Below, in pieces: positions 2,318 to 51,813 of a DNA stretch of 64,000 nucleotides (positions are counted from its first letter, which is position 1; every line of letters starts with the position of its first letter). Under the pieces are notes generated by a model. It did not search any database. It was not told the origin of the DNA and was given only the letters and a program-made list of their open reading frames with translations. The position numbers and the translations under genes were made by a program. The DNA comes from Candidatus Thalassarchaeaceae archaeon (GTDB lineage: Archaea; Thermoplasmatota; Poseidoniia; Poseidoniales; Thalassarchaeaceae), in the NCBI GenBank assembly GCA_023700255.1, contig JAJPRD010000003.1:41779-105778 (forward strand), read 5' to 3'.

Positions 2318-2370
2318 ATCTCTGCACACGGGGAATGAAACATTATATCACATCCTAAAGACAACTGTAT

Positions 2371-2385
2371 GCCCCCTATGGGGGC
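2371..2385 (+). promoter_or_regulatory. Perfect G/C stem-loop GCCCCC-TAT-GGGGGC between the upstream stop and the SD of the TSP3 gene
   Basis: Read directly: 6-bp all-G/C inverted repeat with a 3-nt loop in an otherwise AT-rich spacer. Function (terminator, processing site or operator) is unknown. Confidence 0.45.
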
Positions 2386-2386
2386 C

Positions 2387-2394
2387 GAGGTGAT
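2387..2394 (+). promoter_or_regulatory. Shine-Dalgarno-like GAGGTGAT preceding the TTG start at 2398
   Basis: The 8-nt element matches the consensus complement of the archaeal 16S rRNA 3' end (AGGAGGTGAT core) and has a 3-nt spacer to TTG. Confidence 0.5.
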
Positions 2395-2397
2395 TAA

Positions 2398-8536: not shown

Positions 8537-9805
8537 ATGGTCGGCATCGATGTCTTGGTTGTTGGAGGCGGAGGGAGAGAACATGCTCTTGCCCTGGGTC
8601 TTTCCAAAAGTAACTCAGTAAATCAGATTCATATATCACCTGGTAATGCTGGTACTGCATTTTTAGGTACTAATCATGATGTCCCTTCAAGCGATATTAA
8701 TGGCACAATAAATCTCGCTAAAAAGTTAGATGTTGACTTAGTAGTTGTAGGCCCTGAAGCCCCTCTTGTTGCTGGTTTATCCGATAAGCTAAATCTTCAA
8801 GGTATTGCTTGTTTTGGTCCTGATTCTATTGGTGCTAAATTAGAAGGGTCTAAAATTTATGCTAAAGAACTAATGCAATCCCTAAATATACCTACTGCTG
8901 GATTGGTAATTGTCGAAAACATTGATCGAATTAATGAAGCATTAGATACATTTTCTCCTCCTTGGGTTGTTAAGAGGGATGTTTTAGCCGGAGGTAAAGG
9001 AGTAATAGTTACCGAGATTCGTTCGGAAGCATTTGAAGCCCTGAGAGAAGGTATCGAATTGGATAATTTAGTTCTTCTTGAAGAGTTTCTATCTGGAGAG
9101 GAAGCATCAGTGTTAGTGGTTATGGATGAATCAGGATATATCTGTCTGCCAGCCAGCCAAGATCATAAGCGCTTATCTGACGGTGACTGTGGTCCAAATA
9201 CTGGAGGAATGGGTGCTTATGCCCCCGCTCCAGTATACACTCCAGCAGTACAACTACGAGCAATATCTGAGATAATTGATCCAATGCATCATTATCTCAG
9301 GAATCAAGATATCCCTTATCGCGGATGCCTATATGTTGGATTAATGATTGATGAAAATGGTGCACCTTATGTTGTCGAATACAATGTCCGTTTTGGTGAT
9401 CCCGAGACACAAGTCACATTACCTTTGATCTCAAGTGACCTTGGTGAATTACTACTATCTTGTGCTGAAGGAAGAATTTCTAAATACGATTTCACCACAC
9501 ATCCTTACTCTTCTGCTACGATTGTTCTTGCATCAGAAGGTTATCCGGGGGTGTCAATAACTGGGAGAGAAATTATTGGTGCTGATAATAATATTGAAGA
9601 AGGAGAGATTCATGCATTTGTTCACCATGCAGCCACCTCGATTTCATCTTCTGGGAAACTAGTTTCAAATGGAGGTAGGGTGCTCTCAGTGACCGGAATA
9701 GCCCCTGAATTAAGGACTGCTGTAGAAGCCGCATATGAAGTGATGGGTAGCATAAAATTATCAGGTTCCCAGTATCGTTTAGATATTGCTCATAGAGGAC
9801 TTTGA
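8537..9805 (+). CDS. purD: Phosphoribosylamine--glycine ligase (GAR synthetase)
   Basis: Motifs 'VLVVGGGGREHALALGL', 'VVGPEAPLVAG', the ATP-grasp 'VVKRDVLAGGKGV', 'EYNVRFGDPETQV' and 'GGRVLSVTG'. Confidence 0.92.
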   Translation: MVGIDVLVVGGGGREHALALGLSKSNSVNQIHISPGNAGTAFLGTNHDVPSSDINGTINLAKKLDVDLVVVGPEAPLVAGLSDKLNLQGIACFGPDSIGAKLEGSKIYAKELMQSLNIPTAGLVIVENIDRINEALDTFSPPWVVKRDVLAGGKGVIVTEIRSEAFEALREGIELDNLVLLEEFLSGEEASVLVVMDESGYICLPASQDHKRLSDGDCGPNTGGMGAYAPAPVYTPAVQLRAISEIIDPMHHYLRNQDIPYRGCLYVGLMIDENGAPYVVEYNVRFGDPETQVTLPLISSDLGELLLSCAEGRISKYDFTTHPYSSATIVLASEGYPGVSITGREIIGADNNIEEGEIHAFVHHAATSISSSGKLVSNGGRVLSVTGIAPELRTAVEAAYEVMGSIKLSGSQYRLDIAHRGL

Positions 9806-9923: not shown

Positions 9924-12900
9924 ATGAACGATGATAATGATGCGACTGTTGGTGTATTTTCTAATGAAGATTTACTACCAGTTCCTGCGGTGCTAGCAAC
10001 TTTGATGGTGCTTTTCTTAGGGACTAACTATGTCGCGAATGCTGGAATAGAGAACGACGGATATGTAGACCTCTTGATTCTGCCAGTTATCGCAGCTTTT
10101 GCTGCGTTTATTGGTAGGATTTTGAACACATATGGTGAGTCGTTATCTACTTCGAATTTCCGTAATTCATTGATTTCAATTTTCTTCATAGTTTTTTCAG
10201 TTTTAGCAATTGAATTCGGATTATGTTCTCCTCTTCAAGGTATTACTTTCGCATTTATGATGATATCATCTCTACTTTTATCATCACATCAGAGAAATGA
10301 AGAGTCATCAATCTTACTTTCAGTCGTGATCGGATTCCATTTTGCAATTTCCTTTGCAACTAGGTACATTTTAGACGAAACATCTTGGAGCGGTAATCCC
10401 GATGAATTAATTGATGCTGTAAGAAGTTCTACTGGTTCAATTTTCTTTGCATCATGGGCTGCTTCAATCGCTTTGGGAATTCTTGTAACATTGGCAATGA
10501 GGGGCAGGTTAGCTACTCCTGGAACTGGATCTTGGTTCAGAGATATTCCTTCAATTATGCCTAAAGCAGGATTAATTACTGCTGGTTTGGTATTTATTGT
10601 TAATTTAATCCCATTGCTCTGGCTTGGTACTCTCGATAATATCGAATCTTACAATAATCATCATTATCTTGGTTCTGTTTGGGCTATGTTTGCAACAATT
10701 GTAGTTCTATTTGTGTCTTTTTGTAATTCTGAGAGATGGCACGTACTAGGGATCGTTGCAGCATTAAACTGGATCATTTATACCTTAGCTCATTTACAAG
10801 AAATTGGTAACGATTTACCTCTAGCTGTGCTTAATGGAAATGATTCAGTAGGCATATTCACATGGTTTTTATTGGTATTCTGGCTAAATGTTGGCGCTAT
10901 GATGGTTGCTGGTCGCGGATATCTTGGCGATATATCTCCTCGCAGAGATCATTCTGATTTCCGTAAATGGTGGAATCAACATTCATATGGTATAATGGTC
11001 GGTTTTGCACTTTTCATCGCTTTAGCAGTTAGAACTGGATGGAATGTACTTCCAGCTATGAATGCCGCTGGTACAGGTCTTTGGGATATGTCTGGTGGTT
11101 CTGACCCTTGGTACATGAAGAGAGTTGTCGATTATGTCGTAGCGGAAAGAAGTCATCTGATCATCGACTCGGATAGGGCTTATCCTATGATTGCAATAAA
11201 TCCACGTCCTCCTCTATTCTCCTGGTCACTTGCACTTGGAGGAATCCTTCTTTCATGGTTATCAGGTATGGCTATGGAAGAATCTGTTTGGTGGAGCGTT
11301 GCATCTTTACCTGCAATTTTTGGTGCATTAATTGTTCTTCCAATTGCTGGCCTTGCTAGAAAGCTACACAGTAATATGGCTGGTATAGTTGCTGCTTGGC
11401 TAATTGCTCTCATGCCAGGTCATATTAGTCATTCCACATTTGGTCTTGCAGATCACGATGCTTTTGCTATGTTATTCTTAGCTATTGCATTCTATTACTG
11501 GGTTAAGGCAATGGATGAAATAACTAATCAGAGACTATTCACTACTCCAAGTCTAAATCCACTTTATATTATTGCTGGAATAAGAGAAATGTGGCTACGA
11601 AATAGCAAAGTTATGACTAATGCTACTTTATCTGGTGTTTCATTCGCGATTGTAGCCCTTGGCTGGAAAGGTTTCGTTTATGGTCCTGGAATATTATTTA
11701 TTGCATTTGCATTCCAAATATTCTTTAACATGTTCAGACGCAGAGATAGTTTGCCTATTACTGCTGCATCTCTACAGATGATGCTGACTGCATTTGTAAT
11801 ACCACTACCATTTTATTGCTGGCCAGGACTCAATCTATTGTTCGATGCTAGTGGTTTTCAACCAATGTTTTACATAATTGGTTTCACGTTTGCATTAGGA
11901 TGGATTGCATCATCATATCGTGATAGACCTTGGCTATTAGTACTAGTAAGTACTATCGTATTAATAGGGACTATTCTCGTTACACTTAGATTACTACAAG
12001 AGGCTGAGATTTACGATGGTTGGGACATCCTATTCACAGGTGGATTCTATTTCTCTAAGAATAAGATATTCGGAACTATCGGTGAAGCACAGGCACCAAG
12101 TAGAGGAGTTCTTTTCGCATCATATGGTCCAATAGTTTCATTGATAGCAATAATTGTTGCTGTAATGTTGTTATGGCGTGGTGCCCGTAAAGAGAAACAA
12201 AGCCATATTCTTCTTGGATTATGGGTTCTTATCGCGATATACATGGCTTGGTCTGCAGGTCGTTTCATATTCAATGCAACACCGGCAATTTCAGTAGTAG
12301 GCGGAATAGGTATTGCTATGATGTGGAATTATGCTAATTTCTCAGGATTTACTAAAGAGTGGAGGAAATCTGGAATTGGTACTCCAAGGTCTCGCTTCTG
12401 GGCTAACTGGAGCGCTTCAAAGAGACATCCGGGGATTCCTGCAGTCATTCTTGTTCTAATGTTAGTTTGTTCACAGCATATGACCTATGGTATTGACTCA
12501 GGTATTCCTAGAGGTGAACAATCGGCATCTGATGTCGATCAAACTATTCATGATATCACTCCTGATGTATTTAGGCAAGAAATACTTGGTTTATCTCTCC
12601 TCAATAGTGAGAATTATGACGCAAATGGTGATTTATGGTATATGGGTACCTTCGGTCCCGGTTTCAATTCAGGTTCATGGAATATGGCTTATGAGTGGCT
12701 TTCTGAACAAGATACTGATGTTAGTTTCTCTGAACGTCCTGCCTTTGTTTCATGGTGGGATTATGGTTTCCAAGCACTAGCTCAAGGTGAGCACCCAACA
12801 GTTTCTGACAATTTCCAATCTGGCATTCCAAATAGTGGTGCAATGTTGTTATCATCAAGTCAAGAAGATACACTTTCCTTATTCATCACTACACTAGCTC

Positions 12901-15900
12901 AGGGAGATAGAAGATCAACTGATTCATCTAGTTTTACAGATGAATTTAGCGAATTAATGCTAGAAAGTCATATGACTGAAGAGCAATTTGATGAATTTGA
13001 CACCATTATGCGTCTTGGATTTGGGGATTCTAATCTCGTATTAGATCGTTCTATGTCTGTAGTTGCAGTTGATGGTAATTATGAGTTATTAACTGGATAC
13101 AAACTTGGCGATAATGGTATTTCGAATGATACTCGAGAATGGCTAGTTCTGAATGATGGCGATGAATTAAGTAGCCATGGCGATGAAGAATCAGCAATTT
13201 TAGCATTTAATGATGTGCGGAATTCTGTTTCTGAATTAGACAGATATGATGAGGATATAGATGATTTCGCGAATAAAGGTGAATTAGTTGTTCAATATTA
13301 TGATATAGCTGGATATAGATATACTCCTGACTTAATCGAAGATTTTGATGATATATCTACTGGTTTGCACCGTGTTAATGCAAAACTTGCACTAAGTCGT
13401 GCACTACTCTTACAAATATTTGATTCCAATGGTATGAATTCGTTATATAATGATATTTCTACAACTCTATTTTATGATGTTCAAGATTATGAAGGAGCAT
13501 TGGGAGAAATGATATCAAGGAATAATGAGATTAGATACTTTGCAGTAGATAATCGACTTTATCCACTTGGCGGGAATTACTATGAAGATTATAGTTACCA
13601 TCAGGGACAAACTACAGGTATTTTCCATGCACCTACTTCATTATCTGGATTAGATACTGAGACGTATATTTCTTCAGTTTATGAAACACAGAGGGGTGAT
13701 GGACCCATAATTCCACGTACTTCTGCAGAGTATGAAGCAGAGTACCTTAACGATGTAATCCGTCAACAATCAGGTGCTTTAACTGATGTTAATGAGATGA
13801 TTAGAATGGTGGATATTAATTATCAGCATCAACCAGAATTCTTTGACACTATGGTCGCACGAATTTATGTTGGATACGGAACATCTACACTGGGTCTTCC
13901 TGGTGATGCCGAACAACCTGCGCCGCATTTCTATACATCAGGTGCTCCAGGTTCATATTTAGAGAATGCATATCCTCTTCCTGGTGCAATGATGAATCAT
14001 ATGGTTTTATCTAACTGGTATAATCCAGACTGTGAGACTGATGATAACGGTACTCAATTAGATCTAGATTGTTCTAATCTAGGTATTGGAAGCGCTAATA
14101 CTCAAGTTAAGATAATGAAATACTACAGTGGAGCTACTATCGAAGGAACTGTTGAGTTAGATGGTTTAGGACCTGTCCCTAATGCAAGAATCTTAATTGA
14201 ACGTGATGCCTTTAGTGGAGATGAAGTCGAACTAGATGGTCATGTCACAGATAGGGACACGAGAACCTATTGGATTCCTATTGGTACCACTGATGCTGAT
14301 GAAAATGGGGATTATAGTTTCGTTGCTCCAGCGGGTAAAATTCGAGTCACAGCATTCTATGGTGAATCTGACTTAGATTCAGCGCGTGCTCAAATCATGA
14401 CCTCCAATGTTGGTCAATCACTTGGAGACCTTTTCGAAAGTGAGACACCAGGTGTTAGAAGCCTAAATCCAATTACAGGAATTCTAGGTAATGTATCAGG
14501 TTCTACTTGGTTATCTGAAACTATTGTTAATATTTCAGGAACCGATGGTCATAGTAATGGAGAATCTGTTATCTTTGCTCCAATTATTGTTGAACCAGCA
14601 TCATCTACTGGTAGATTAGTTTGGTCAGGGTCAGAAATATTCTCAGGTGATTCTTTAGATAGTGCTACTGTTGAGTTATCACCAGCATGGGATTTAATTA
14701 ATGCCGATCCATATCTTTTGTCAACATCAGACGGGTCAATCGAAGGAGATAATCTTAGATTCACTGGTACTGGAGAAGTAACATTTACTGGTGAAGGTAG
14801 TGTTACTACTTCATCAATAGCAACAATTTCTGATTTCACGGGTAATTATACACAAACAGTATTCAACAACCATAGCTTAAATGGCGATGGAGAGTTTGCT
14901 GGCAGAGGTGTTATTGATGGTATAATCACAGATGATATTCAAGAATTAATGAATTGTGATGTTAATGAAACAATGCCTGAGAATTCTAGTTTATGTATCC
15001 AATCAGATGGCAAATATCTCTTAGATGGTATAGTTAATGCAACTGGTCGATTTACTGCTAACGGCGTTGCATCCTTCACTCAAAAACTAGTACAAGCAAC
15101 TCTAATTGGTTCTGGTGTATTTTCTACAAATACATCTGACTCTACATTGAATAGTTACGGTACTATAAATGGTACTGGGACATTTACTGGTATGGGTATG
15201 TTTAGTGGTTCAATAGTTCAACCAGGTACATTCCACGTAGTGGATGCGATACCAGGAACTTACGATGTAGTCGTAATTTTCAGTGATGGAACACGTGTTG
15301 AAATCAATGATGGTTATGTTATATCTCAACAACCAATCAATTCAATTACTGAAATAGATATTAATGGTGGTTTAATTGAAGGTGATTTAATCGATCAATC
15401 AGGCAATCCATTGATGGCATCAATTATTCTAAGAACTAATGATTCAGTTAGCTCTGATGCAGTTGATGATTGTAGTGTAGTGATATATGCTCCTTGTCTG
15501 ATATCATCTGAGCTATCATGGGATGAGGGTGAATTAATCGGTTCTAAATTAAATTACGGACCAATTATGCCGGGTCATTATATCATAGAAATTGATATGG
15601 ATGGAGACGGTTTCTCCGAAGTATACAGAGAACATATCTTTGATGCTAATGAAGAATCTTCTTTCATATTCCCATCCCCTGTTCCTTTAACAACTGATTT
15701 GACCTTCTCATTAGTAAGAGATGAAAATGGAAGCGACACATTAGTGAATGATTTAAATTTGACACTAAACTTAAAGAATGGTTCAGGCTCAACAGTTAAT
15801 GCTGAATTCAATTCAATGACTAATGATTACTATGCTGAACTAGTACCTGGTGTTTGGATATTAAATTACACACTTTCTGATACAGAGCAATTATGGGAAG

Positions 15901-18900
15901 AAATTGAAGTAGGATTCGATGATTTCTCAACTGTTTACGAATTCCGTACCAGTCAAGTTGTAACTGGTACATTATATTACAATGAAAATTCTACAGATCT
16001 TTCAATTGATGAAAACAAAATCTTGGACTTTGTGCCTATTGTTTTCTATTGGGATGGTTTCAGTACAACAGTCGAAACATCATCTGAAGGTAAATTTTCT
16101 TTAGTTCTACCTGAAGGATCTACAGTAGATGCAATTGCTCAACTTGGCGTTGATTTAAAATTAGTTAATGGTACTCAATTTACTGTAGTTGCAGATATGG
16201 ATGAGATCACTATGGTTGCTCGACCGGGTCAATCAATTACAGGTGCTATCAGTATTAATAGAGCAGATAATTTATACAATGGAGATATTGGTGGTTGGGA
16301 ATCAGTAACTGTAATTGCTGAGAATCTTGATTATGATGTGCAATGGCGTGCTCAGGCTAATGATGGCGGTTTCTTTGAAATGGTTATTCCAAAGGGTAAC
16401 TGGCAATTTTCGGTTGATTCTGATGAATTTATATCAGGTACTAATGTAACTAATGTTGATAACTTTAACAATACGGTTGAAGTTATTATTTATCCCGATG
16501 ACTCATTATTGTCAGTGGATTTCTTCTTAGATAACTCTGGCGATAACAATCTCTCTAATGGTACTCCAGTAAGTTATGATTTCAGCTTAATATCATTAAT
16601 TAATGGTTTAGATTATCATATAAATATTGATGATTCTGAATGGAATGGAACTGGGCATGCAGATGTATTATTAGAACCTGGTATTTATCGAATATCAGTC
16701 GATATATCTGATGCTAATTCAGGTGAACTATTTGGTACAAGGATTCTTACTGGAGATGTCGATTTCCAAGTAGGAATGGAATCTTCAACGATTTCTCGTG
16801 CAATAGGTTTTGATCCTGAATGGCGAGTAAGTATGTCTTTCACAAACGAAAGTGGTGGAGTCTTATCCGAACAACTAGTTAGACTAAATAATGTAGAAAA
16901 TGGATGGGTGCTTTCACGAACAACGAATGTTAATGGTAGTATAGTTGGTTTTATATCTCAGGGTGATTGGATAGTAACTACTGAAACAATGTCTAATGGT
17001 ATCCGTGAAGGACTAAGGGAATTAATTTCCGTATCTTCTGATAATTCTGCAACAAATTTATCTATGTCTACTAGTGAACTTGCAGACGTATCATTCACAT
17101 TGTCCGAAGACGGAAGCAATGATTCCTTAACCGGAATAAGTTTGTTACTAGAGTCCGCAGAGGGTTTGGGATCATTCAGTATTGAAGCTACAAACTCTAG
17201 TGGATTAACTGAAATTAATTTAGTAACAGGGGAATGGATAGTTTCTCTTAATTATACTGACGATGGTAAGAGATGGCTAGTCGATGATTATACGATTTCA
17301 GTAGATATAAGTGATAATAATCATTACAACTTGACTGCTAATCTATATGTTGCACTGACAGGTACTGTATATTGGGATCTAAATGATAACAACGCATCTA
17401 ATGTTGGTGAAGGTGTTTCAGATGTAACTATGCTATTCACAAATGATATTTTGTCAAATAACACTATTGAATCTGGAGATAATGGTGACTGGGAGCTATT
17501 TGTTCCTGCAAATACAGTATGGCAGATTAATACCTCTTATGATGGATTTGAGAGCATACAACAAAGTGTATCTGTTTCGGATATGTCTAATGAAGTTCTT
17601 CTTGAATTAACTGCTGGTCTAGTAGACGTTTCAGGTAATCTATCTTACGACCTCGGAATAGAAAGCATCTCAGTAGATGATTTAGTCCTTACAATAATAC
17701 CTACTGAAGGTCTTGTTCGCGATTCGGTGACTCCACAGTTATTGTATGGTGATGATGGTTGGTTAGGTGAATGGTCTGCTCAATTAGAGCCAGGTCTTTG
17801 GATAGTCAGTGCTAGTGTCCCTACTGAAGATTTAGTTATCATGGGTCTATTAAATGTAGATGTGGTTGATGGTGGGAATCTAGATATGGAATTGACAAAA
17901 GGTGGTCTCCTTGATGTAAATACTGAATGGTTAGACTACGATGGAGTCTCTCATAATCTTGGAGAGATTGTCGATGCAAATATAGTCATTGATATCGGAT
18001 TTGGAATGAAGTGGGTCCAGGATGTTGAAACAGATGGTTCTTTGAATTTACTTTTACCTAATGGTAATGTTGAATTTTCAAGTGATTTTGAAATTGAACA
18101 AAGAGGAATTATTATGGAATACATAGCGGGTAGAGGAGTAGATGTTTATTCTGGTCAAGAATCTCCAGTATTATCTCTACTGTACAATAGGGTATCAAAT
18201 CATGAAATTACAATTAATACTTTGAATCTTACCTCTGGTCATGATAGTTATGTTGGTTCTATGAGTGATGTGAATCTTGTAGTTAATGCAACTGATGGTT
18301 TTGAACCTGTTGAATTTACTCTTGAAGTCAACTATCTTGGTCATGAATCATATGATCTTTACACTGTAGGGGGTCTTGTTTCTGGTACAGATAGCGCTGA
18401 ATGGAGCTTACAATTCGATAATGGTTCAGGGGAATGGAATACTTCCACTCAGTTCGAGGTAGGTCTCGATAATAGTCAAATGTTTAATGATTTGAATATT
18501 CGAGTCGTTGCTCCTAACCAATCTGTTGCTCATGCATTTGAAGATGGTCATAAAATTACAATTAGTATTTCTACGCAAGATGGTTATCTAGAAACTCATG
18601 AATTAATAGTTAGGATACCTCAATTACATGGATTTGAATTATCCACTCCTATGGATGATATATATGGTGTATATCCTGGTGAGTTATTGATCATACCAAT
18701 TGAAATTACTAATTCAGGAAATGGTGATGAGAAGTATGAATTTGAATTTGATGATTCAGAATTACCAGATGGTTGGAGTAGGACTGGTCCTACATCTCAT
18801 ACATTAGGTGGATTTGTTAGTACTATTCACAGCGTAACAGTTGTTGCTCCTGAAGATGTATCATCTAGTGATCAATTCTCGATATATGTTTCAGTTACTG

Positions 18901-19448
18901 ATAAGGTAGGTAATTCATATGAGACGATTGTAATTAATGTAATAAGTTCTGAACCGAGTCTTACGATTGAGAATGTTCAAGCATTAGGAGGCGGAGAACC
19001 TCAAGCTGGTGGTCAGATAACTTATATTACAACAATATCTAATTCTGGTTTAGTTGATGCAAAGCAAGTTCAACTGAATGCAACTCTTTGTAATGACGTA
19101 AGTTGTGAAAACCCAACATCCGTTAATGCTGTTACTACAATGGATATAAGCGCAGAATCAGAAATGCAGTTTAGTTTCTTGTTTGATTTGTCTGATATCA
19201 CAGTAGGACCTTATTATTTAGTTCTAGGGATTAATGCTAGTATATTCGGTGAAGAAAATATTAATGATGACTCTTGGAATGAAGTTGATGGTATACTAAT
19301 TGGTACAATGAATGTAGACGTTCGCTCTCCGGCAGTAGGTGATGACGAGAATACTGATATTATACCGTACATTCTAGTGATAGGATTGATATTAGTTGGG
19401 TTTTATCTGACTAAAGGACGTTCAAGGCGCCCAGGTGCTCCATTCTAA
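9924..19448 (+). CDS. aglB: Giant fusion protein: unknown polytopic N-module + AglB/STT3 oligosaccharyltransferase + about 1,800-aa beta-sandwich array + C-terminal TM anchor
   Basis: 3,174-aa uninterrupted ORF. STT3 hallmarks are the EL1 loop 'GGSDPWYMKRVVDYV...YPMIAINPRPPLFSW', 'GLADHDAFAM', and the catalytic WWDYG in 'FVSWWDYGFQ' (nt 12753-12767). Downstream lie CarboxypepD_reg-like 'GATIEGTVELDGLGPVPNARILIERD...ENGDYSFVAPAGKIRVTAF' and CARDB/NEW3-like 'GELLIIPIEITNSGNGDEKYEFEFDDSELPDGWS'. The protein ends 'IIPYILVIGLILVGFYLTKGRSRR'. Confidence 0.85.
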   Translation: MNDDNDATVGVFSNEDLLPVPAVLATLMVLFLGTNYVANAGIENDGYVDLLILPVIAAFAAFIGRILNTYGESLSTSNFRNSLISIFFIVFSVLAIEFGLCSPLQGITFAFMMISSLLLSSHQRNEESSILLSVVIGFHFAISFATRYILDETSWSGNPDELIDAVRSSTGSIFFASWAASIALGILVTLAMRGRLATPGTGSWFRDIPSIMPKAGLITAGLVFIVNLIPLLWLGTLDNIESYNNHHYLGSVWAMFATIVVLFVSFCNSERWHVLGIVAALNWIIYTLAHLQEIGNDLPLAVLNGNDSVGIFTWFLLVFWLNVGAMMVAGRGYLGDISPRRDHSDFRKWWNQHSYGIMVGFALFIALAVRTGWNVLPAMNAAGTGLWDMSGGSDPWYMKRVVDYVVAERSHLIIDSDRAYPMIAINPRPPLFSWSLALGGILLSWLSGMAMEESVWWSVASLPAIFGALIVLPIAGLARKLHSNMAGIVAAWLIALMPGHISHSTFGLADHDAFAMLFLAIAFYYWVKAMDEITNQRLFTTPSLNPLYIIAGIREMWLRNSKVMTNATLSGVSFAIVALGWKGFVYGPGILFIAFAFQIFFNMFRRRDSLPITAASLQMMLTAFVIPLPFYCWPGLNLLFDASGFQPMFYIIGFTFALGWIASSYRDRPWLLVLVSTIVLIGTILVTLRLLQEAEIYDGWDILFTGGFYFSKNKIFGTIGEAQAPSRGVLFASYGPIVSLIAIIVAVMLLWRGARKEKQSHILLGLWVLIAIYMAWSAGRFIFNATPAISVVGGIGIAMMWNYANFSGFTKEWRKSGIGTPRSRFWANWSASKRHPGIPAVILVLMLVCSQHMTYGIDSGIPRGEQSASDVDQTIHDITPDVFRQEILGLSLLNSENYDANGDLWYMGTFGPGFNSGSWNMAYEWLSEQDTDVSFSERPAFVSWWDYGFQALAQGEHPTVSDNFQSGIPNSGAMLLSSSQEDTLSLFITTLAQGDRRSTDSSSFTDEFSELMLESHMTEEQFDEFDTIMRLGFGDSNLVLDRSMSVVAVDGNYELLTGYKLGDNGISNDTREWLVLNDGDELSSHGDEESAILAFNDVRNSVSELDRYDEDIDDFANKGELVVQYYDIAGYRYTPDLIEDFDDISTGLHRVNAKLALSRALLLQIFDSNGMNSLYNDISTTLFYDVQDYEGALGEMISRNNEIRYFAVDNRLYPLGGNYYEDYSYHQGQTTGIFHAPTSLSGLDTETYISSVYETQRGDGPIIPRTSAEYEAEYLNDVIRQQSGALTDVNEMIRMVDINYQHQPEFFDTMVARIYVGYGTSTLGLPGDAEQPAPHFYTSGAPGSYLENAYPLPGAMMNHMVLSNWYNPDCETDDNGTQLDLDCSNLGIGSANTQVKIMKYYSGATIEGTVELDGLGPVPNARILIERDAFSGDEVELDGHVTDRDTRTYWIPIGTTDADENGDYSFVAPAGKIRVTAFYGESDLDSARAQIMTSNVGQSLGDLFESETPGVRSLNPITGILGNVSGSTWLSETIVNISGTDGHSNGESVIFAPIIVEPASSTGRLVWSGSEIFSGDSLDSATVELSPAWDLINADPYLLSTSDGSIEGDNLRFTGTGEVTFTGEGSVTTSSIATISDFTGNYTQTVFNNHSLNGDGEFAGRGVIDGIITDDIQELMNCDVNETMPENSSLCIQSDGKYLLDGIVNATGRFTANGVASFTQKLVQATLIGSGVFSTNTSDSTLNSYGTINGTGTFTGMGMFSGSIVQPGTFHVVDAIPGTYDVVVIFSDGTRVEINDGYVISQQPINSITEIDINGGLIEGDLIDQSGNPLMASIILRTNDSVSSDAVDDCSVVIYAPCLISSELSWDEGELIGSKLNYGPIMPGHYIIEIDMDGDGFSEVYREHIFDANEESSFIFPSPVPLTTDLTFSLVRDENGSDTLVNDLNLTLNLKNGSGSTVNAEFNSMTNDYYAELVPGVWILNYTLSDTEQLWEEIEVGFDDFSTVYEFRTSQVVTGTLYYNENSTDLSIDENKILDFVPIVFYWDGFSTTVETSSEGKFSLVLPEGSTVDAIAQLGVDLKLVNGTQFTVVADMDEITMVARPGQSITGAISINRADNLYNGDIGGWESVTVIAENLDYDVQWRAQANDGGFFEMVIPKGNWQFSVDSDEFISGTNVTNVDNFNNTVEVIIYPDDSLLSVDFFLDNSGDNNLSNGTPVSYDFSLISLINGLDYHINIDDSEWNGTGHADVLLEPGIYRISVDISDANSGELFGTRILTGDVDFQVGMESSTISRAIGFDPEWRVSMSFTNESGGVLSEQLVRLNNVENGWVLSRTTNVNGSIVGFISQGDWIVTTETMSNGIREGLRELISVSSDNSATNLSMSTSELADVSFTLSEDGSNDSLTGISLLLESAEGLGSFSIEATNSSGLTEINLVTGEWIVSLNYTDDGKRWLVDDYTISVDISDNNHYNLTANLYVALTGTVYWDLNDNNASNVGEGVSDVTMLFTNDILSNNTIESGDNGDWELFVPANTVWQINTSYDGFESIQQSVSVSDMSNEVLLELTAGLVDVSGNLSYDLGIESISVDDLVLTIIPTEGLVRDSVTPQLLYGDDGWLGEWSAQLEPGLWIVSASVPTEDLVIMGLLNVDVVDGGNLDMELTKGGLLDVNTEWLDYDGVSHNLGEIVDANIVIDIGFGMKWVQDVETDGSLNLLLPNGNVEFSSDFEIEQRGIIMEYIAGRGVDVYSGQESPVLSLLYNRVSNHEITINTLNLTSGHDSYVGSMSDVNLVVNATDGFEPVEFTLEVNYLGHESYDLYTVGGLVSGTDSAEWSLQFDNGSGEWNTSTQFEVGLDNSQMFNDLNIRVVAPNQSVAHAFEDGHKITISISTQDGYLETHELIVRIPQLHGFELSTPMDDIYGVYPGELLIIPIEITNSGNGDEKYEFEFDDSELPDGWSRTGPTSHTLGGFVSTIHSVTVVAPEDVSSSDQFSIYVSVTDKVGNSYETIVINVISSEPSLTIENVQALGGGEPQAGGQITYITTISNSGLVDAKQVQLNATLCNDVSCENPTSVNAVTTMDISAESEMQFSFLFDLSDITVGPYYLVLGINASIFGEENINDDSWNEVDGILIGTMNVDVRSPAVGDDENTDIIPYILVIGLILVGFYLTKGRSRRPGAPF

Positions 19449-20718
19449 TTATATATCACTAGTGTATATTATACGGGGTGGATACTTGAAGTCTCTTGAA
19501 AACTTAGACCTATTACCTGAGCCAGATGACCATAGGATTTTGACTGCTATTGATTCATCCGCTCCGGGTTATCCAGGGGCAGATTATGGCCTTACTGATC
19601 AAGAAGCTCGGGAATTAAGATGGCCAATTGGTCCTATGAAAGAGTATCTCTGGCCCAATGGTGCAATATTTTTTTCATTTGCTATAATTTTATTAATTGC
19701 TAGTTGGCCATGGGTTAATGCGTATTTAATACCGATTTTACCAGATTCTGAATGGGCATATGACGAAACTGGAATTAGGGAACTCCAATCGGAAGGATTT
19801 TTCGGAGAGGGAGTGCATGTTTGTATTGTAGATACAGGAATTGACATGAATCATCCAGATTTTGCACATCAAGAATTATTGGGTTTTAGAGACTTTGTAG
19901 ATGGTAATCATGACTCTATAAGGGATGTAGGTGATAATTCACATGGCACACTGATGACTGGTTTATTAATTTCTAATGGTAAATTCACGGGTGCGGCACC
20001 AATGGTCGGACTTTCTGTTGCTTTAGCACTGGATAATGAAGGTACTTCTGGTTCAAGTGATCGTGTTGCTCAAGCAATAAGATGGTGTAGGATTACTCAG
20101 AGGGTAGATATAATTTCATTGAGTCTTGGTGGAGAGCCTTCTGAGTTCTCATTAAATTCTCAAACTAATATTGCAGTTGAAGAAGCGCTCGAAGCAGGGA
20201 TATTTGTTGTAGCTGCTGCTGGAAATACTGGACTTGACTCAGATGTTGATGATGTATCCCAACCATCTAGCATTGCAGGTGTAATTTCAGTAGGTGCTGT
20301 GAATAAAGCAGGGAATGTTTGGGGAAGTAGTGCTTATGGCTCATTGAATGATCCCTTTTCAGATGAAGCTAGGGAATATCCGAATCAAAAGCCAGAAGTT
20401 ATCGCACCAGGTGTGAATATATTCTCTACTGCCTCGAGCAGTCTCTCATCACCTTATGCATATTCTTCAGGTACCAGTGACTCAACAGTATTTGTCACAG
20501 GTGCACTAGCGCTTATACTCCAACAATTTGGAGATGCAATTGCTGGCTCAGATGGCATCATCGACGCAGATGAAATGAATCGAGTGAAACAATCACTGGC
20601 TACCTCTTGTAATCGAAATAATTTTGAAAGTAATACTCATAATTCTCATTCTGGATATGGTAGCCTTGATGTAGTGAAATGGTCGGAAGAAGTGGCCTTT
20701 TCGTTCAATATTGCATAG
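19435..20718 (+). CDS. Membrane-anchored subtilisin-like serine protease (peptidase S8)
   Basis: The Asp/His/Ser triad contexts are 'VCIVDTGIDMNHPDF', 'NSHGTLMTG' and 'SGTSDSTVFVTGALAL'. An N-terminal TM reads 'GAIFFSFAIILLIASWPWV'. The ORF overlaps the aglB 3' end by 14 nt, and the exact start (GTG at 19435) is uncertain. Confidence 0.8.
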   Translation: MLHSNYISLVYIIRGGYLKSLENLDLLPEPDDHRILTAIDSSAPGYPGADYGLTDQEARELRWPIGPMKEYLWPNGAIFFSFAIILLIASWPWVNAYLIPILPDSEWAYDETGIRELQSEGFFGEGVHVCIVDTGIDMNHPDFAHQELLGFRDFVDGNHDSIRDVGDNSHGTLMTGLLISNGKFTGAAPMVGLSVALALDNEGTSGSSDRVAQAIRWCRITQRVDIISLSLGGEPSEFSLNSQTNIAVEEALEAGIFVVAAAGNTGLDSDVDDVSQPSSIAGVISVGAVNKAGNVWGSSAYGSLNDPFSDEAREYPNQKPEVIAPGVNIFSTASSSLSSPYAYSSGTSDSTVFVTGALALILQQFGDAIAGSDGIIDADEMNRVKQSLATSCNRNNFESNTHNSHSGYGSLDVVKWSEEVAFSFNIA

Positions 20719-20795: not shown

Positions 20796-23700
20796 ATGTC
20801 AAAGCGTCGTGCAAGAAGTTCGTTCCTCGTTTTTCTAATGTTATCTAGTGTCCTTATTGCTTTAGTAGGGCCCGCCACTCCAGTAATGGCTAACAATGAA
20901 ACAACCGCTGGAACTATAACAACATCAGAAACTTGGTCTGGTACTCATCAGTTAACAGGAGATGTAACGATTGCTTCAGGTGCCAAGTTAATTATTAATC
21001 CTGGAACTACGGTTATTTTCCCTAATGGTACTTATTTAGATGTAAGAGGTAATATTTGTGCTGGTGTATCCTCATGTGGTGCATCTGGTGATGCTAGTAT
21101 AGCAAACAAAATTACTCTCCGTTGGACTGATCCTTCAAACTCTAGTGCGATTGGTGAATGTAAAGGCATGATGCAAGGTACTCAGGAGATTCAGATCGAA
21201 GATGCTTCATGTTTTGAGGGAATGCTAATCCGTAGTTCGATTGATTTGTCTGAAACTGGATTTAGGCATATTACAATTGATGATGCTTGGGGGATTCCTT
21301 ACTATATCGATTCTATTAGCCGATGGCGATATGGTGCCATGGTTATCGATGGAGCATCGCCTACATTAACTCAAATGCGTTTCACAAACATCAATACAAG
21401 CAGTGTATTAACTACTAATCTCGCTCAACCTACATTTGAAGGTGGTACTTATGTTGCAGGAAATGACGGCAAGAGTGGTGTTGGTGGTTCTGCCGTACAG
21501 ATATATGGTTCAGGGACTCAAATATCACCACTTGTTATGAATTCACCATTTTTTATTGGCACTGATAATGGTTGTGGCAATAACGATGGTGGCCGACCAA
21601 CTCTTTGGGCAGAAGGCACCTTTATCGAAATTAATGATGCTACTGTTAACACCGGTGATTATGGTTTTTCTCTAACAAGTTCATCAGGACTTATTACCAA
21701 TTCAGATATCAATGTTAACTGTAATGGTATCGACATAAATGGAATTAAAGCAGTTCAAGGTGTTGAATTTACTATTGAGGTTGGCAATAATGAGATAACA
21801 ACTGATACAGGTACTGGGATAACCGCTTATGATGGTGCGAATGTTGAGTTACATAACAATGAAATCTCAGGCGTAGGTGAACGTTCAGGGATCACTGTAC
21901 AATCAAGTAAAGCATATATTCACCATAATGAAATTGGACCAATAGGTGGATGGAATGGTTTATGGTTAACTGGTACTTTTGATGTAATAGCAGAATATAA
22001 TACTATTTCGGAGACAGCTAAAACTCCAATACAGGTTGGAGAACCGAGCAGTTCAGGGCCCGCTCCATCAGCATCAAGACTTCACTTCTCGAACAATACT
22101 GTGAGCGTCAATTCACCCGGGACTTGCTCTAGCTTCCAATATTGGGGTGGGGAATATACTTGTCCGGCAGTCAGTCTTTTCCGTTCAGGAGTGACCCTTT
22201 ACGATAATGAATTCAGTATGGGCGGAGATGCTGATGGAATTAGGGCAATCGGAGGGCTTCTAGACGTTCAAAGAAATTTATTTAATACACCAGGTACTGG
22301 TGCAGTAATTCGTAATTATGATAGTGGTTTTGCTAATACTCAACAATATGGCTCACTCGGATTCTTTTCTCTTAATACATGGAATGGTGTTGAAACTGCT
22401 TATAATGTGACAAAATCCTCTGTAACAGTTCAATCCGAATTTATCCCTAGTTCTCCACCGGGTAATTTCCCCGTAATTCTTGACTGGCCTGATCAAGAAG
22501 CATGGCCAGCAAATGGTTTCCAAGGTTCAATTATGCCAACTCAAATTTCAGAATGTGCAAGTTGTGCTAACTTGACACCGATTAATTTCCCATTAGCAAT
22601 TAGTATGGATAATAACTCTACTGTCTTTACATTCGCAAATTTATCTAATGTTGATACTTCAAAGATTTTTATTAAATCTCAACCAACACAATATGCAGTT
22701 CAAGTACGTCGAGCGGAAATGGTAAGGTTCCAAACATTAGTTGATGGAATGAAAGTTGAAAATACAAATGTGCTTATTGAAGATGCACTCGGTAACGATC
22801 TTTATTCCCTATATACCGATCAAGACGGCTACACACCATGGTTTGCCTTAGCATCAGATTCACATCTTGATTTCAGAGGATTAGCAGGAGGGGATAACCC
22901 AGATGGTTTTGCAGATGATGAATATGAAGATTCATGTTCCGATGGTATCGACAATGATGGAGATTTAACCATTGATGACGACGATTTAGATTGTGATTAT
23001 ACTACAGGTACCCGCGAGTTATCTCGTTATTATTTCACTGCATATCGTTTTGGATTTGGCTATGCACGCAGTGATTTTGTGATACAAGATGTGACCTATC
23101 AAGATACCATTAATCTATTAAATTCTGGACCATCTGTATCTGTAGTTCAAAACAATGGTCATTCCTTCAGAAAAATAGTAAATTTCACCGGTTCCGCGCA
23201 TGATGGTCAATTAGCAGGTTTTTACGCCACTGATTCTCTAGCTCAATGGGATCAAAAAGGATATATTCATTCAATTGAGGTACGAGATCCATTCACAAGC
23301 GAATGGGAATCTGCTGGACTTGGAGTTGACGATAGCGGAGCAGAACCGGGAACTGTGACTCGATTCAATCATCCATTCAATTCTTGGCACTATTCATTTG
23401 ATATGTCTAATTACCAAGAAACTGACTATACTTTCGAATTTAGATCATTTGATGGTATTGACTACAGCCCAATTATTTCTAGAACAATTAAGCTTAATGC
23501 GGCTCCTCCTATAATCACGATTTCTTCTCCTAGTGATGGTTCTACTTGGTCCGACGGTTCAGTGACTTTCGAAGGAACTGCATATGATCAGTATGGCTGT
23601 CCAATTGATTGTAGTAACGATATAGGTGAAGTTTATTTCTACATCAGTGGGCCTAATTTTGAAGGTACAACGCCAACATCAGGTGGTGCTGATTGGTCAT

Positions 23701-51721: not shown

Positions 51722-51726
51722 AACTA

Positions 51727-51798: not shown

Positions 51799-51813
51799 TG
51801 CACCTCAACTATC

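What the first reader, a model, noticed from the sequence alone, without database searches (positions are those of the whole stretch)
9924..19448. 3,174-aa oligosaccharyltransferase megaprotein, with the AglB/STT3 core embedded in a far larger multi-domain protein
Seen in sequence: one uninterrupted ORF carries the STT3 external-loop-1 block ('DPWY...YP...RPPLF'), 'GLADHDAF' and the catalytic WWDYG at about aa 944.

Established knowledge: characterised archaeal AglB, bacterial PglB and eukaryotic STT3 proteins are of the order of 600-1,000 aa, with WWDYG roughly mid-protein.

Here the core is flanked on both sides by an extra polytopic module, about 1,800 aa of extracytoplasmic beta-sandwich domains and a second C-terminal TM anchor.

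Inference: the OST may be physically built into, or tethered to, an envelope scaffold. Alternatively it may carry its own carbohydrate-binding or adhesive array.
Basis: partly seen in the sequence, partly recalled or inferred. Interest (0 to 1): 0.8.

Follow-up and report, generated by a model that had tools for sequence, protein, structure and literature searches.

The report
Giant oligosaccharyltransferase of Marine Group II archaea
One real 3,174-residue gene, conserved across Marine Group II archaea, joins the enzyme that attaches sugar chains to secreted proteins to a ten-helix membrane module with no recognisable relative and a huge surface array tethered to the membrane at both ends, making it three to four times larger than any solved enzyme of this kind.

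Summary
Window 9924-19448 (+) is one uninterrupted 3,174-codon ORF.

- **Catalytic core:** residues 351-~1400 are an STT3/AglB oligosaccharyltransferase. Pfam STT3 gives E=2e-13, the closest solved structure is A. fulgidus AglB, and Foldseek's top 17 hits are all OST catalytic subunits. The motifs DPWY, DHD, TIGE and WWDYG do not vary in the family alignments.
- **Not an artefact:** more than 110 full-length homologues (43-98% identity) measure 3,122-3,338 aa. About 48 independent MAG/SAG assemblies of Poseidoniales carry the same unbroken ORF in the same gene order. Every region shows dN/dS of about 0.04-0.13.
- **N-terminal module (1-350):** ten helices, modelled confidently (pLDDT 87). It has no Pfam, PDB or Foldseek relative and occurs only in this family.
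- **Residues ~1400-3140:** an acidic array of prealbumin/Ig-like beta-sandwiches, enriched in N-glycosylation sequons. A C-terminal TM helix and a conserved RR..APF tail follow.

Best reading: an active AglB with lineage-specific additions that tie it to a fixed-length surface scaffold. What the additions do is inferred, not shown. I found no description of this architecture in the searched literature, so I class it as a new variant of a known kind.

The parts
9924..19448 (+). Whole gene: 3,174-aa giant AglB/STT3 (stop codon included)
   Evidence: for the ORF. Full-length homologues measure 3,122-3,338 aa. Unbroken ORFs occur in about 48 related loci. dN/dS is about 0.04-0.13 in every region.
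9924..10973 (+). N-terminal 10-TM module (aa 1-350), specific to this lineage, no known relative
   Evidence: The AF2 model has pLDDT 87.4 and pTM 0.84, with 10 long helices. There is no Pfam or PDB sequence hit. Foldseek finds nothing in PDB or BFVD (best E about 0.6, TM <=0.22). It is not a copy of the STT3 TM core (hhalign probability 0.3%) and has no internal repeat. It occurs only in the giant family. Conserved residues include R65, E126, E127, R167, R193, E270, W272, W283, E293, G295 and R347.
10974..12503 (+). STT3/AglB transmembrane core (aa 351-860, about 13 TM helices, with loops EL1 and EL5)
   Evidence: Pfam STT3 covers aa 379-705 and TIGR04154 covers aa 358-982. phmmer and a family profile hit A. 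fulgidus AglB-L 3WAJ at 2e-10 and 5.6e-14. Foldseek's top 17 hits are all OST catalytic subunits. This is the most conserved part of the protein.
11103..11114 (+). EL1 motif DPWY (catalytic Asp D394)
   Evidence: Aligns to GGNDPWY of AfAglB. Invariant in alignments A3 and A5 and present in 150 of 150 full-length homologues.
11451..11459 (+). DHD (D510-H511-D512), the second metal-binding DxD-type motif
   Evidence: Aligns to NDHH of AfAglB. Invariant in A3 and A5.
12075..12086 (+). EL5 TIGE (TIXE motif; T718, E721)
   Evidence: Position. T718 and E721 are invariant in A5. Variants seen are TIGEAQ and TIAEA(N/Q/S).
12504..14123 (+). Extracytoplasmic catalytic domain (aa 861-1400), enlarged relative to solved AglBs
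   Evidence: The AglB_core-like hit at aa 937-981 is weak. The AglB-S C-terminal domains 3VGP and 3VU0 match profile positions 921-988. Residues 1201-1550 are highly conserved. Sequons are depleted here: 2 observed against 4.9 expected.
12753..12767 (+). WWDYG catalytic motif (aa 944-948)
   Evidence: Position. Aligns to WWDYG of AfAglB. Present in 150 of 150 homologues.
12921..13523 (+). Variable, highly acidic insertion within the catalytic domain (aa ~1000-1200)
   Evidence: 43 D+E in aa 1001-1200. This stretch has the lowest conservation and the most gaps. The AF2 model is partly confident here and shows helices followed by beta hairpins.
14124..19343 (+). Acidic, sequon-rich array of prealbumin/Ig-like beta-sandwich domains (aa ~1401-3140)
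   Evidence: Pfam hits in homologues are listed; tile hits in the window protein fall at aa ~1405-1480, 2127-2186, 2510-2556 and ~3010-3100. The AF2 beta-sandwich at aa ~1403-1479 has weak transthyretin-like Foldseek hits. Sequons number 39 observed against 22.6+-4.4 expected, with N1536, N1749 and N2212 conserved in 23 of 23 sequences. The extracytoplasmic region aa 861-3140 has 359 D+E against 78 K+R.
15252..18563 (+). Ancient internal repeats within the array (aa ~1777-2880; units of about 95-100 aa; block 1777-2207 resembles 2252-2675)
   Evidence: Self-hhalign of the family alignment gives probability 97% and E=6e-11, with shifted alignments at offsets of about 100 and about 190 aa.
19353..19421 (+). 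C-terminal transmembrane anchor (aa ~3144-3166)
   Evidence: Hydropathy peak at aa 3144-3162. Present in all homologues inspected.
19422..19445 (+). Conserved basic cytoplasmic tail ending in Phe (GRSRRPGAPF)
   Evidence: The pattern R[RK]..APF occurs in 109 of 150 homologues. Every complete homologue ends in Phe.
19435..20718 (+). Neighbour, not part of the protein: S8 subtilase with an N-terminal hydrophobic anchor, immediately downstream in all related loci
   Evidence: Pfam Peptidase_S8 E=3e-37. Syntenic in 56 loci. Sequence shown. The true start codon probably lies downstream of the listed GTG.
20796..25001 (+). Neighbour: conserved 1,401-aa beta-helix/Big_7 surface protein (signal peptide, C-terminal TM, acidic tail)
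   Evidence: Pfam hits. Syntenic in 56 loci at about 56-92% identity. Sequence shown.

Best explanation
This is the AglB oligosaccharyltransferase of a Marine Group II archaeon (order Poseidoniales; probably family Thalassarchaeaceae, judged from the nearest loci). It is encoded as one polypeptide of about 24 TM helices.

Shown:
- Residues 351-~1400 are an STT3-fold GT-C enzyme with every recognisable catalytic motif intact.
- The whole 3,174-aa architecture is a single gene under purifying selection and is conserved in length and order across the lineage.

Inferred from family knowledge: it transfers a dolichol-phosphate-linked glycan to Asn in N-X-S/T sequons on the outer face of the membrane.

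Inferred, weaker:
- The ~2,280-aa acidic ectodomain is held at both ends, by the last STT3 helix and by the C-terminal anchor. It probably forms a fixed-size, heavily N-glycosylated arch or canopy that belongs to the cell-surface architecture and keeps the enzyme within it. This would make it a single-chain counterpart of the beta-sandwich, single-pass accessory subunits of eukaryotic OST, rather than a variable adhesin.
- The unique 10-TM N-terminal module is an accessory membrane domain. Candidate roles are handling the lipid-linked donor, or docking the C-terminal anchor and its RR..APF tail on the module's conserved charged cytoplasmic face.
For: - **ORF and motifs:**
- **STT3 membership:**
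- **Catalytic residues invariant:**
- **Conserved giant architecture:** (more than 110 full-length homologues; 491 contigs of GTDB species representatives; unbroken ORFs; length SD of 39 aa; collinear, few gaps; dN/dS about 0.04-0.13 in all regions).
- **Topology:** ten N-module helices plus the N-in STT3 orientation put the basic loops inside and the acidic loops outside (sequence). The C-terminal TM is followed by a basic tail.
- **Beta-sandwich array:**
- **Sequon enrichment and conservation in the array:**
- **Transcription of Poseidoniales aglB in seawater:** PMC9723583.
- **Conserved neighbourhood with other envelope genes:**
Against: - No biochemical data exist for this protein.
- The DK/MI Ser/Thr-pocket motif could not be identified.
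- The AF2 model of the core has low confidence (pLDDT 59.7), including around WWDYG.
- The score against the NCBIfam archaeal STT3 subfamily is far below its cut-off (161.7 against 450), so the core is divergent.
- The scaffold role of the ectodomain and any role for the N-module rest only on architecture, conservation and composition.
- The beta-helix neighbour is not sequon-enriched, so the cluster gives no direct sign of a glycoprotein substrate.
- I could not test whether these genomes also encode a conventional short AglB.
Confidence: 0.6

Rival explanations
1. Precursor model. The giant protein is made as one chain and then cut, plausibly by the membrane-anchored S8 subtilase encoded immediately downstream. 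The products would be a conventional-sized AglB and a separate type-I surface glycoprotein (the beta-sandwich array with its own C-terminal anchor). Fusion would then serve co-expression and co-localisation only.
For: An S8 subtilase with an N-terminal hydrophobic anchor follows the gene in all 56 related loci that extend far enough, separated by a very short gap or an overlap. On its own the array has the layout of a type-I membrane protein.
Against: No cleavage site or linker is evident. The boundary near aa 1400-1550 is among the best-conserved, gap-free parts of the protein. Conserved synteny is not evidence of a protease-substrate relationship, and other subtilases are present in the same window.
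Confidence: 0.2
2. Adhesin or carbohydrate-binding model. The C-terminal array is a functional binding surface for particles, algal polysaccharides or other cells, and it merely shares a polypeptide with AglB.
For: The domain types detected (CarboxypepD_reg, CARDB, NPCBM_assoc, SdrD_B, SpaA, Big_1) are common in adhesins and glycan-active enzymes. MGII genome papers stress adhesion functions (PMC6461757).
Against: Length and domain order are almost fixed across the order (SD 39 aa; few gaps), and dN/dS is about 0.1. In my experience adhesins usually vary in repeat number (background knowledge, not tested here). Both ends are anchored in the membrane. No carbohydrate-binding module reached significance in the window protein.
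Confidence: 0.15
3. Catalytically inactive relic. The STT3 domain serves only as a membrane anchor for a surface protein, and glycosylation is carried out by another AglB in the genome.
For: The core is divergent (below the TIGR04154 cut-off). The DK/MI motif was not recognised. The presence of a second AglB was not tested.
Against: D394, D510/H511/D512, T718/E721, WWDYG and many surrounding residues do not vary across homologues down to about 33-40% identity. The TM core is the most strongly constrained region (omega about 0.04).
Confidence: 0.04
4. Assembly artefact: a chimeric join, or a missed stop or frameshift that fuses two or three genes.
For: Four of about 52 related loci show a shorter ORF, and one contig splits the gene into three pieces.
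Against: About 48 independent assemblies from many studies, single-cell genomes included, have the unbroken ORF of the same length. More than 110 full-length database proteins are known. The split contig has fragmented neighbouring genes as well, which is typical of an indel-rich assembly.
Confidence: 0.01

Closest known systems
Archaeoglobus fulgidus AglB-L (PDB 3WAJ/3WAK/5GMY/7E9S), the best-characterised archaeal oligosaccharyltransferase
   Same: It is the best sequence and fold match among solved structures. It shares the 13-TM GT-C core, the EL1 Asp in (G)GxDPWY, the DxD/DxH motif, the EL5 TIXE motif and WWDYG.
   Different: The deposited AfAglB-L chain is 875 residues; this protein is 3,174. 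AfAglB-L has no 10-TM N-terminal module, no ~200-aa acidic insertion after WWDYG, no ~1,750-aa beta-sandwich array and no second anchor. Sequence identity is only about 15% in Foldseek alignments. The DK-type motif was not recognisable here.
Eukaryotic OST holoenzyme (STT3 plus ribophorin I/Ost1, ribophorin II/Swp1, OST48/Wbp1 and others; e.g. PDB 6EZN, 6S7O)
   Same: A catalytic STT3 surrounded by additional TM helices and by lumenal beta-sandwich domains that are held by single C-terminal TM anchors. The overall logic resembles the N-module plus array plus C-terminal anchor found here. The STT3 subunits are strong Foldseek hits. The description of the accessory-subunit folds is from my own knowledge, not from a test run here.
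   Different: There the extra parts are separate subunits; here everything is one chain. No Pfam hit to ribophorin or OST48 families was obtained. This is an analogy, not demonstrated homology.
NCBIfam TIGR04154, archaeosortase A system-associated archaeal STT3
   Same: It is the best NCBIfam model: E=2.6e-47 over aa 358-982.
   Different: The score of 161.7 bits is far below the family cut-off of 450. Only model positions 3-575 of 831 align. No PGF-CTERM-type signal is present.
NOMO (BOS complex subunit; PDB 9C7V): a rod of about 12 transthyretin/Ig-like domains with a C-terminal TM anchor in the ER lumen
   Same: A long string of CarboxypepD_reg/transthyretin-like beta-sandwiches ending in one TM helix. 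The matches are weak: PF22902 and PF23193 in a few homologues and 9c7v_B at E=0.0068.
   Different: The matches are marginal and involve a very widespread domain type. NOMO is not fused to an enzyme. No functional link is implied.

Membership tests
STT3/AglB/PglB oligosaccharyltransferase catalytic subunit (Pfam PF02516; GT-C fold) | Significant match to the STT3 HMM above Pfam's gathering score | tested here: met
   51.1 bits against a cut-off of 24.5, E=2e-13, aa 379-705. 15 of 15 diverse homologues match.
STT3/AglB/PglB oligosaccharyltransferase catalytic subunit (Pfam PF02516; GT-C fold) | 13-TM GT-C fold resembling solved OST structures | tested here: met
   Foldseek's top 17 PDB hits are all STT3A, STT3B, STT3, AglB or PglB (E from 5e-10 to 1e-5, probability 1.00). 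The model has low confidence (pLDDT 59.7) and TM-scores are 0.34-0.46 on the target. Hydropathy is consistent.
STT3/AglB/PglB oligosaccharyltransferase catalytic subunit (Pfam PF02516; GT-C fold) | Catalytic acidic residue in external loop 1 and a DxD/DxH-type metal-binding motif | tested here: met
   D394 in GGSDPWY aligns to AfAglB GGNDPWY. D510-H511-D512 aligns to AfAglB DHH. Both are invariant.
STT3/AglB/PglB oligosaccharyltransferase catalytic subunit (Pfam PF02516; GT-C fold) | TIXE/SVSE motif in external loop 5 | tested here: met
   TIGE at aa 718-721, with T718 and E721 invariant. The assignment to EL5 rests on its position between TM segments and on family knowledge.
STT3/AglB/PglB oligosaccharyltransferase catalytic subunit (Pfam PF02516; GT-C fold) | WWDYG motif at the start of the extracytoplasmic domain | tested here: met
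   aa 944-948. Aligned to AfAglB WWDYG. Present in 150 of 150 homologues.
STT3/AglB/PglB oligosaccharyltransferase catalytic subunit (Pfam PF02516; GT-C fold) | DK or MI motif forming the Ser/Thr (+2) pocket | tested here: inconclusive
   No alignment to solved AglB C-terminal domains extends beyond about 45 residues after WWDYG. A conserved RYFAVD(N/D)(R/K)L(Y/F)P at aa 1204-1214 is a candidate, but the AF2 model is unreliable there.
STT3/AglB/PglB oligosaccharyltransferase catalytic subunit (Pfam PF02516; GT-C fold) | Transfer of a lipid-linked glycan to Asn of N-X-S/T | not testable with these tools
   This needs an enzyme assay or glycoproteomics.
NCBIfam TIGR04154 (archaeosortase A-associated archaeal STT3 subfamily) | Score at or above the curated cut-off (450 bits) | tested here: not met
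   161.7 bits, with a partial model match covering positions 3-575 of 831.
Archaeosortase/PGF-CTERM-type sorting signals | Short signature (PGF, PEF and similar) immediately before a C-terminal TM helix and basic tail | tested here: not met
   No conserved motif precedes the TM helix. Conservation lies after it (R[RK]..APF, with a terminal Phe).
CarboxypepD_reg / prealbumin-like beta-sandwich domains (PF13620 and relatives) | Pfam match above the gathering score | tested here: inconclusive
   The window protein scores 24.0 bits, below the 32.3 cut-off, and tile hits give E from 0.001 to 0.05. However, 13 of 15 homologues match (best E=1.2e-20), and the modelled domain at aa ~1403-1479 has weak transthyretin-like Foldseek hits (E about 0.4, probability 0.96).
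Eukaryotic OST accessory subunits (ribophorin I/II, OST48) | Sequence match to the corresponding Pfam families | tested here: not met
   None of these families appears among the Pfam hits at E<=1 for the window protein or at E<=0.01 for 15 homologues.

The most novel reading that the evidence does not exclude
The protein is a single-chain 'holo-OST plus envelope' machine. The novel-fold 10-TM module would deliver or handle the lipid-linked glycan; a flippase-like role is conceivable, and as far as I know the archaeal LLO flippase has not been firmly identified. The STT3 core would transfer the glycan. The fixed-length, self-glycosylated ectodomain, clamped to the N-module through its C-terminal anchor and RR..APF tail, would itself be a principal structural element of the Poseidoniales cell surface. 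In that reading, the enzyme that glycosylates the envelope is part of the envelope.
Probability: 0.1. Interest if true: 0.85.

Novelty: new variant of a known kind. Interest (0 to 1): 0.62.

Why it matters
Oligosaccharyltransferases are usually described as either single-subunit enzymes of about 700-1,000 aa (bacteria and archaea) or multi-subunit complexes (eukaryotes). This is a third layout: one chain of about 24 TM helices and 3,170 aa. It is fixed across Poseidoniales, described in the literature as the most abundant planktonic archaea of surface oceans (PMC6461757). No member of this order has been cultured, and I found nothing on its envelope in the papers searched.

The protein offers three things:
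- a confidently modelled 10-helix membrane module with no solved or annotated relative, permanently attached to an OST;
- a natural example of an OST covalently linked to a large beta-sandwich ectodomain, useful for thinking about how accessory lumenal subunits arose;
- a lineage-specific, highly conserved, probably abundant surface antigen that could serve for enrichment, imaging or metaproteomic tracking of MGII cells.

The sequences are already public under generic names such as "STT3 domain-containing protein". The value lies in recognising and dissecting the architecture, not in finding a new gene.

Tried and rejected
- **N-module as a duplicate of the STT3 TM core:** rejected (hhalign probability 0.3%).
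- **N-module with an internal 5+5 repeat:** none detected.
- **N-module as a known family:** no Pfam hit at E<=0.1 in 10 members. No PDB sequence hit at E<=10. No Foldseek hit in PDB or BFVD. The MATE, MFS and ABC "hits" have TM-scores <=0.22 and are noise.
- **N-module as a stand-alone protein elsewhere:** a profile search of 1.84 billion representatives found only giants and short fragments. The one 848-aa "short form" on a long contig (P0160) proved to be the same gene broken by frameshifts in an indel-rich contig.
- **PGF-CTERM/archaeosortase signal:** absent.
- **Locating the DK/MI motif by alignment to solved AglB domains:** failed.
- **AF2 model of aa 345-1540:** low confidence (pLDDT 59.7), so I used it only for fold-level matching.
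- **Downstream 1,401-aa beta-helix protein as a sequon-rich substrate:** not supported (12 sequons against 15.9 expected).
- **Covariation between the C-terminal tail class and N-module residues:** seen (the ..RF tails go with E127W and R80S/G), but it cannot be separated from shared ancestry.
- **Literature searches for any description of a giant AglB in MGII/Poseidoniales:** nothing found. One metatranscriptome paper lists aglB as transcribed.
Full report
**1. The observation**

The window holds one ORF at 9924..19448 (+) with an ATG start and 3,174 codons. The translation has no internal stop. A TIGE sequence at 718 matches the EL5 TIXE motif of oligosaccharyltransferases. Kyte-Doolittle hydropathy shows about ten hydrophobic segments before aa 350, about thirteen between 354 and 857, and then nothing until a single segment at 3144-3162 followed by KGRSRRPGAPF. 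The extracytoplasmic stretch between them is very acidic: aa 861-3140 has 359 D+E against 78 K+R.

**2. Is the core an oligosaccharyltransferase?**

Yes.
- Pfam STT3 (PF02516) scores 51.1 bits, E=2e-13, above the gathering score, over aa 379-705. AglB_core-like is a weak hit at aa 937-981.
- NCBIfam TIGR04154 (archaeal STT3) gives E=2.6e-47 over aa 358-982. At 161.7 bits it is far below that subfamily's cut-off of 450, so the core is divergent and does not belong to that subfamily.
- Among solved structures the best sequence match is A. fulgidus AglB-L (3WAJ/5GMY), at 2e-10 with the single sequence and 5.6e-14 with a family profile. GGSDPWY aligns to GGNDPWY, ADHD to NDHH, and WWDYG to WWDYG. 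Eukaryotic STT3, STT3A and STT3B follow.
- An AF2 model of aa 345-1540 has low confidence (pLDDT 59.7, pTM 0.44, 38-sequence alignment). Even so, its 17 best Foldseek matches in the PDB are all OST catalytic subunits: STT3A, AglB, yeast STT3, STT3B and PglB, at E from 5e-10 to 1e-5. Other GT-C enzymes (ALG9, ArnT, ALG12) rank next.
- D394, D510/H511/D512, T718/E721 and W944-G948 are invariant in alignments of 38 and of 15 diverse family members, down to about 33% overall identity. DPWY and WWDYG occur in 150 of 150 full-length homologues.
- The one defining feature I could not locate is the DK/MI motif of the Ser/Thr pocket. Alignments to solved AglB domains stop about 45 residues after WWDYG. 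A conserved RYFAVD(N/D)(R/K)L(Y/F)P at aa 1204-1214 is only a candidate.

**3. Is the 3,174-aa ORF real?**

Yes, beyond reasonable doubt.
- A search of 5.8 billion proteins returned 483 hits. Of the 120 best, 111 are longer than 3,100 aa, at 43-98% identity and mostly 97-100% query coverage.
- Source names include "Euryarchaeota archaeon", "uncultured marine group II/III euryarchaeote", "Candidatus Thermoplasmatota archaeon" and "asparagine N-glycosylation enzyme membrane subunit Stt3".
- A scan of one genome per GTDB species found 491 contigs encoding a relative. The 80 best are labelled Poseidoniales, Thalassarchaeaceae, Thalassarchaeum, or carry older Euryarchaeota/Methanobacteriota MAG names.
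- In the loci that contain the whole gene, the frame is open for 3,127-3,270 codons in about 48 assemblies from many projects, single-cell genomes (AG-313-L18, AG-404-A19) included. Only four are interrupted.
- Over 150 full-length cluster representatives the total length is 3,122-3,338 aa (median 3,173, SD 39). The DPWY-to-WWDYG distance is 544-564 aa, and WWDYG to the end is 2,154-2,366 aa.
- A 23-sequence alignment is collinear with almost no gaps.
- Pairwise dN/dS against two loci with about 86% identity to the query in the aa 345-1540 region is 0.04-0.13 in every region: N-module about 0.11, TM core about 0.04, catalytic domain about 0.07, array about 0.10-0.13. Synonymous sites are near saturation, so these values are, if anything, overestimates.
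- The one apparent short form (P0160, 848 aa, on a 341-kb contig) is the same gene split into 848+168+2136 codons. Its neighbouring genes are also fragmented and the synteny is identical, which points to assembly indels rather than a real split gene.

**4. The N-terminal module (aa 1-350)**

AF2 with a 49-sequence alignment gives a confident model (pLDDT 87.4, pTM 0.84) with ten long helices. STT3 begins on the cytoplasmic side (family knowledge) and the module has an even number of helices, so the N-terminus should also be cytoplasmic. The loops agree with the positive-inside rule: RGRLATPGTGSWFRDIPSIMPK and RGYLGDISPRRDHSDFRKWW fall inside, while the acidic loops ENDGY, LDETSWSGNPDE and EIGNDLP fall outside (sequence).

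The module has no detectable relative:
- No Pfam hit better than E=0.19 in ten members.
- No PDB sequence hit at E<=10 with a profile.
- No Foldseek match in PDB (best E=0.64, TM <=0.22) or in BFVD.
- It is not a copy of the STT3 TM core (hhalign probability 0.3%) and has no internal repeat.
- A profile search of 1.84 billion representative proteins found 58 hits. Apart from one unrelated 3,202-aa DUF11-repeat protein at the threshold (P0174, E=7e-4), they are ~3,146-3,228-aa giants or short fragments from small contigs. The named ones are Poseidoniales.

Conserved residues include a set of charges on the predicted cytoplasmic face (R65, E126, E127, R193, E270, R347), polar residues within helices (N282, N322), and E293/G295 on the outer face. 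This pattern suggests a function beyond inert anchoring. Nothing here says what that function is.

**5. The extracytoplasmic part**

Residues 861-~1400 contain WWDYG and correspond to the AglB globular domain. They are enlarged by a variable, very acidic insertion at aa ~1000-1200.

From about aa 1400 the protein becomes a string of beta-sandwich domains:
- In the window protein the Pfam signals are weak: CarboxypepD_reg near aa 1405-1480, 2127-2186 and 2510-2556, and DUF11/CARDB near aa 3010-3100.
- Across 15 diverse homologues, CarboxypepD_reg is found in 13 (best E=1.2e-20), with NPCBM_assoc, CarbopepD_reg_2, NOMO1-like, CARDB, SpaA, SdrD_B, Big_1 and DUF11 in some.
- The AF2 model shows an all-beta domain at aa ~1403-1479 with weak transthyretin-like Foldseek hits.
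- Profile self-comparison shows that aa ~1777-2207 resembles aa ~2252-2675 (probability 97%). Further alignments shifted by about 100 and about 190 residues indicate old tandem units of about 95-100 aa between roughly aa 1780 and 2880.
- N-X-S/T sequons are enriched in the array: 39 observed against 22.6+-4.4 in shuffles. Many are conserved, with N1536, N1749 and N2212 present in 23 of 23 sequences. The catalytic domain, by contrast, is depleted (2 against 4.9). No other large protein in the window reaches this enrichment.
- The chain ends in a TM helix and a basic tail. The last residue is Phe in every complete homologue, and the pattern R[RK]..APF occurs in 109 of 150. There is no PGF-CTERM-like signature before the helix.

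**6. Context**

The gene lies among housekeeping genes (aminotransferase, archease, DnaJ, GluRS, PheRS beta, RNase HII, GAPDH) and several large secreted proteins. No other glycosylation gene was detected in the window.

The local gene order is conserved in the related loci wherever the contig reaches:
- a 596-aa surface protein on the minus strand (57 loci);
- CarS (62 loci);
- purD (70 loci);
- the giant AglB;
- an S8 subtilase (56 loci);
- a 1,401-aa beta-helix/Big_7 surface protein (56 loci, about 56-92% identity).

The subtilase has an N-terminal hydrophobic segment, and its ORF starts within a few dozen bases of the AglB stop codon. A metatranscriptome study lists aglB among genes enriched when MGIIb genus O1 is active, so the gene is expressed in nature. 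That paper does not comment on its size (PMC9723583).

**7. Interpretation**

Shown: this is a bona fide, order-wide conserved, single-gene AglB homologue with intact catalytic motifs and two lineage-specific additions.

Inferred from family knowledge: it transfers lipid-linked glycans to Asn on the outer face of the membrane.

For the additions I favour a structural reading. The ectodomain is anchored at both ends, acidic, probably heavily glycosylated, under purifying selection, and held to a nearly constant length with fixed domain order. That fits a defined arch or canopy built into the cell surface, or a platform around the active site. It resembles the beta-sandwich, single-pass accessory subunits of eukaryotic OST, but fused into one chain. 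It fits a repeat-variable adhesin less well.

The N-module may handle the lipid-linked donor or dock the C-terminal anchor. The basic RR..APF tail and the conserved acidic cytoplasmic residues make such a contact conceivable. Tail class co-varies with E127 and R80, but shared ancestry could explain that equally well.

The main rival is a precursor cleaved by the adjacent conserved subtilase. I give it about 0.2.

**8. Novelty**

The sequences are public under automatic names. In 8 million full texts I found no paper describing this architecture. Searches combining AglB, STT3 or oligosaccharyl- with MGII and Poseidoniales terms returned only the transcriptome mention, and two major MGII comparative-genomics papers do not mention glycosylation at all. 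Solved OST catalytic subunits are 640-875 residues.

I therefore rate it a new variant of a known kind: a known enzyme in an undescribed single-chain mega-architecture, carrying a membrane module with no known relative. Interest is moderate to high. It does not overturn OST biochemistry, but specialists in OST and archaeal envelopes would find it surprising, and it gives concrete handles on the unknown cell surface of the ocean's dominant planktonic euryarchaea.

**9. Limits**

- I could not test for a second, conventional AglB in the same genomes.
- I could not model the array beyond aa 1540.
- I could not search predicted-structure libraries of cellular proteins with the N-module.
- I could not place the family phylogenetically relative to other Thermoplasmatota AglBs.

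Noticed in passing
window 19435-20718 (+): An S8 subtilase with an N-terminal hydrophobic anchor lies immediately downstream of the giant AglB. The listed GTG start overlaps the AglB stop by 14 nt, and the true start is probably a little further downstream. It is syntenic in all 56 related loci that reach this far. It contains no N-X-S/T sequon, against 3.6 expected.
   Followed up: partly
window 20796-25001 (+): A 1,401-aa secreted beta-helix/Big_7 protein with a signal peptide, a C-terminal TM helix and a long acidic tail. It is unusually well conserved for a surface protein (about 56-92% identity across Poseidoniales loci) and always follows the subtilase. It is not sequon-enriched (12 observed against 15.9 expected). 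It is a candidate major envelope component.
   Followed up: partly
window 5919-7709 (-), 7787-8479 (+), 8537-9805 (+): The upstream neighbours are also syntenic across the order: a 596-aa surface protein with a signal peptide, TM helix and acidic tail; CDP-archaeol synthase CarS; and purD.
   Followed up: partly
window 25062-27596 (+): An 844-aa protein combining an N-terminal HTH (Crp-like), a STAND-type NTPase (AAA_16/NB-ARC/ATPase_2) and C-terminal TPR repeats. This is a signal-transduction or defence-like architecture. The fetched loci end before this point, so its conservation is unknown.
   Followed up: no
window 2398-5445 (+), 28594-34314 (+), 48827-51808 (-), 56579-61393 (+): Several other very large secreted proteins share the 64-kb window: 1,015 aa and 1,906 aa with bacterial TSP3 repeats, 993 aa with no Pfam hit, and a 1,604-aa S8 subtilase. 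The region is rich in surface proteins.
   Followed up: no
window 35246-36250 (+): A single ORF fuses a pyroglutamyl peptidase (Peptidase_C15) domain with a NUDIX hydrolase domain.
   Followed up: no
window 14955-14996 (aa 1678-1691) within the array: Two invariant cysteines (C1678 and C1691) enclose a 14-residue loop, CDVNETMPENSSLC, that holds two sequons. A second pair of nearly invariant cysteines lies further on. These may be extracellular disulphide loops.
   Followed up: no
L081 (ENA ERZ10645735 contig_16102) 10001-19557: A divergent lineage (39% identity over the N-module and TM core) has the same gene order, but the AglB is split into 848+168+2136 codons. Many neighbouring genes are fragmented as well, which looks like an indel-rich assembly rather than a genuine split gene.
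   Followed up: partly
C-terminal tails of homologues (P0001-P0230 set): Every complete homologue ends in Phe. Homologues with ..RF tails (for example SRSNNRF) also have Trp in place of E127 and Ser or Gly in place of R80 in the N-module. This could reflect a contact or simply lineage structure.
   Followed up: partly
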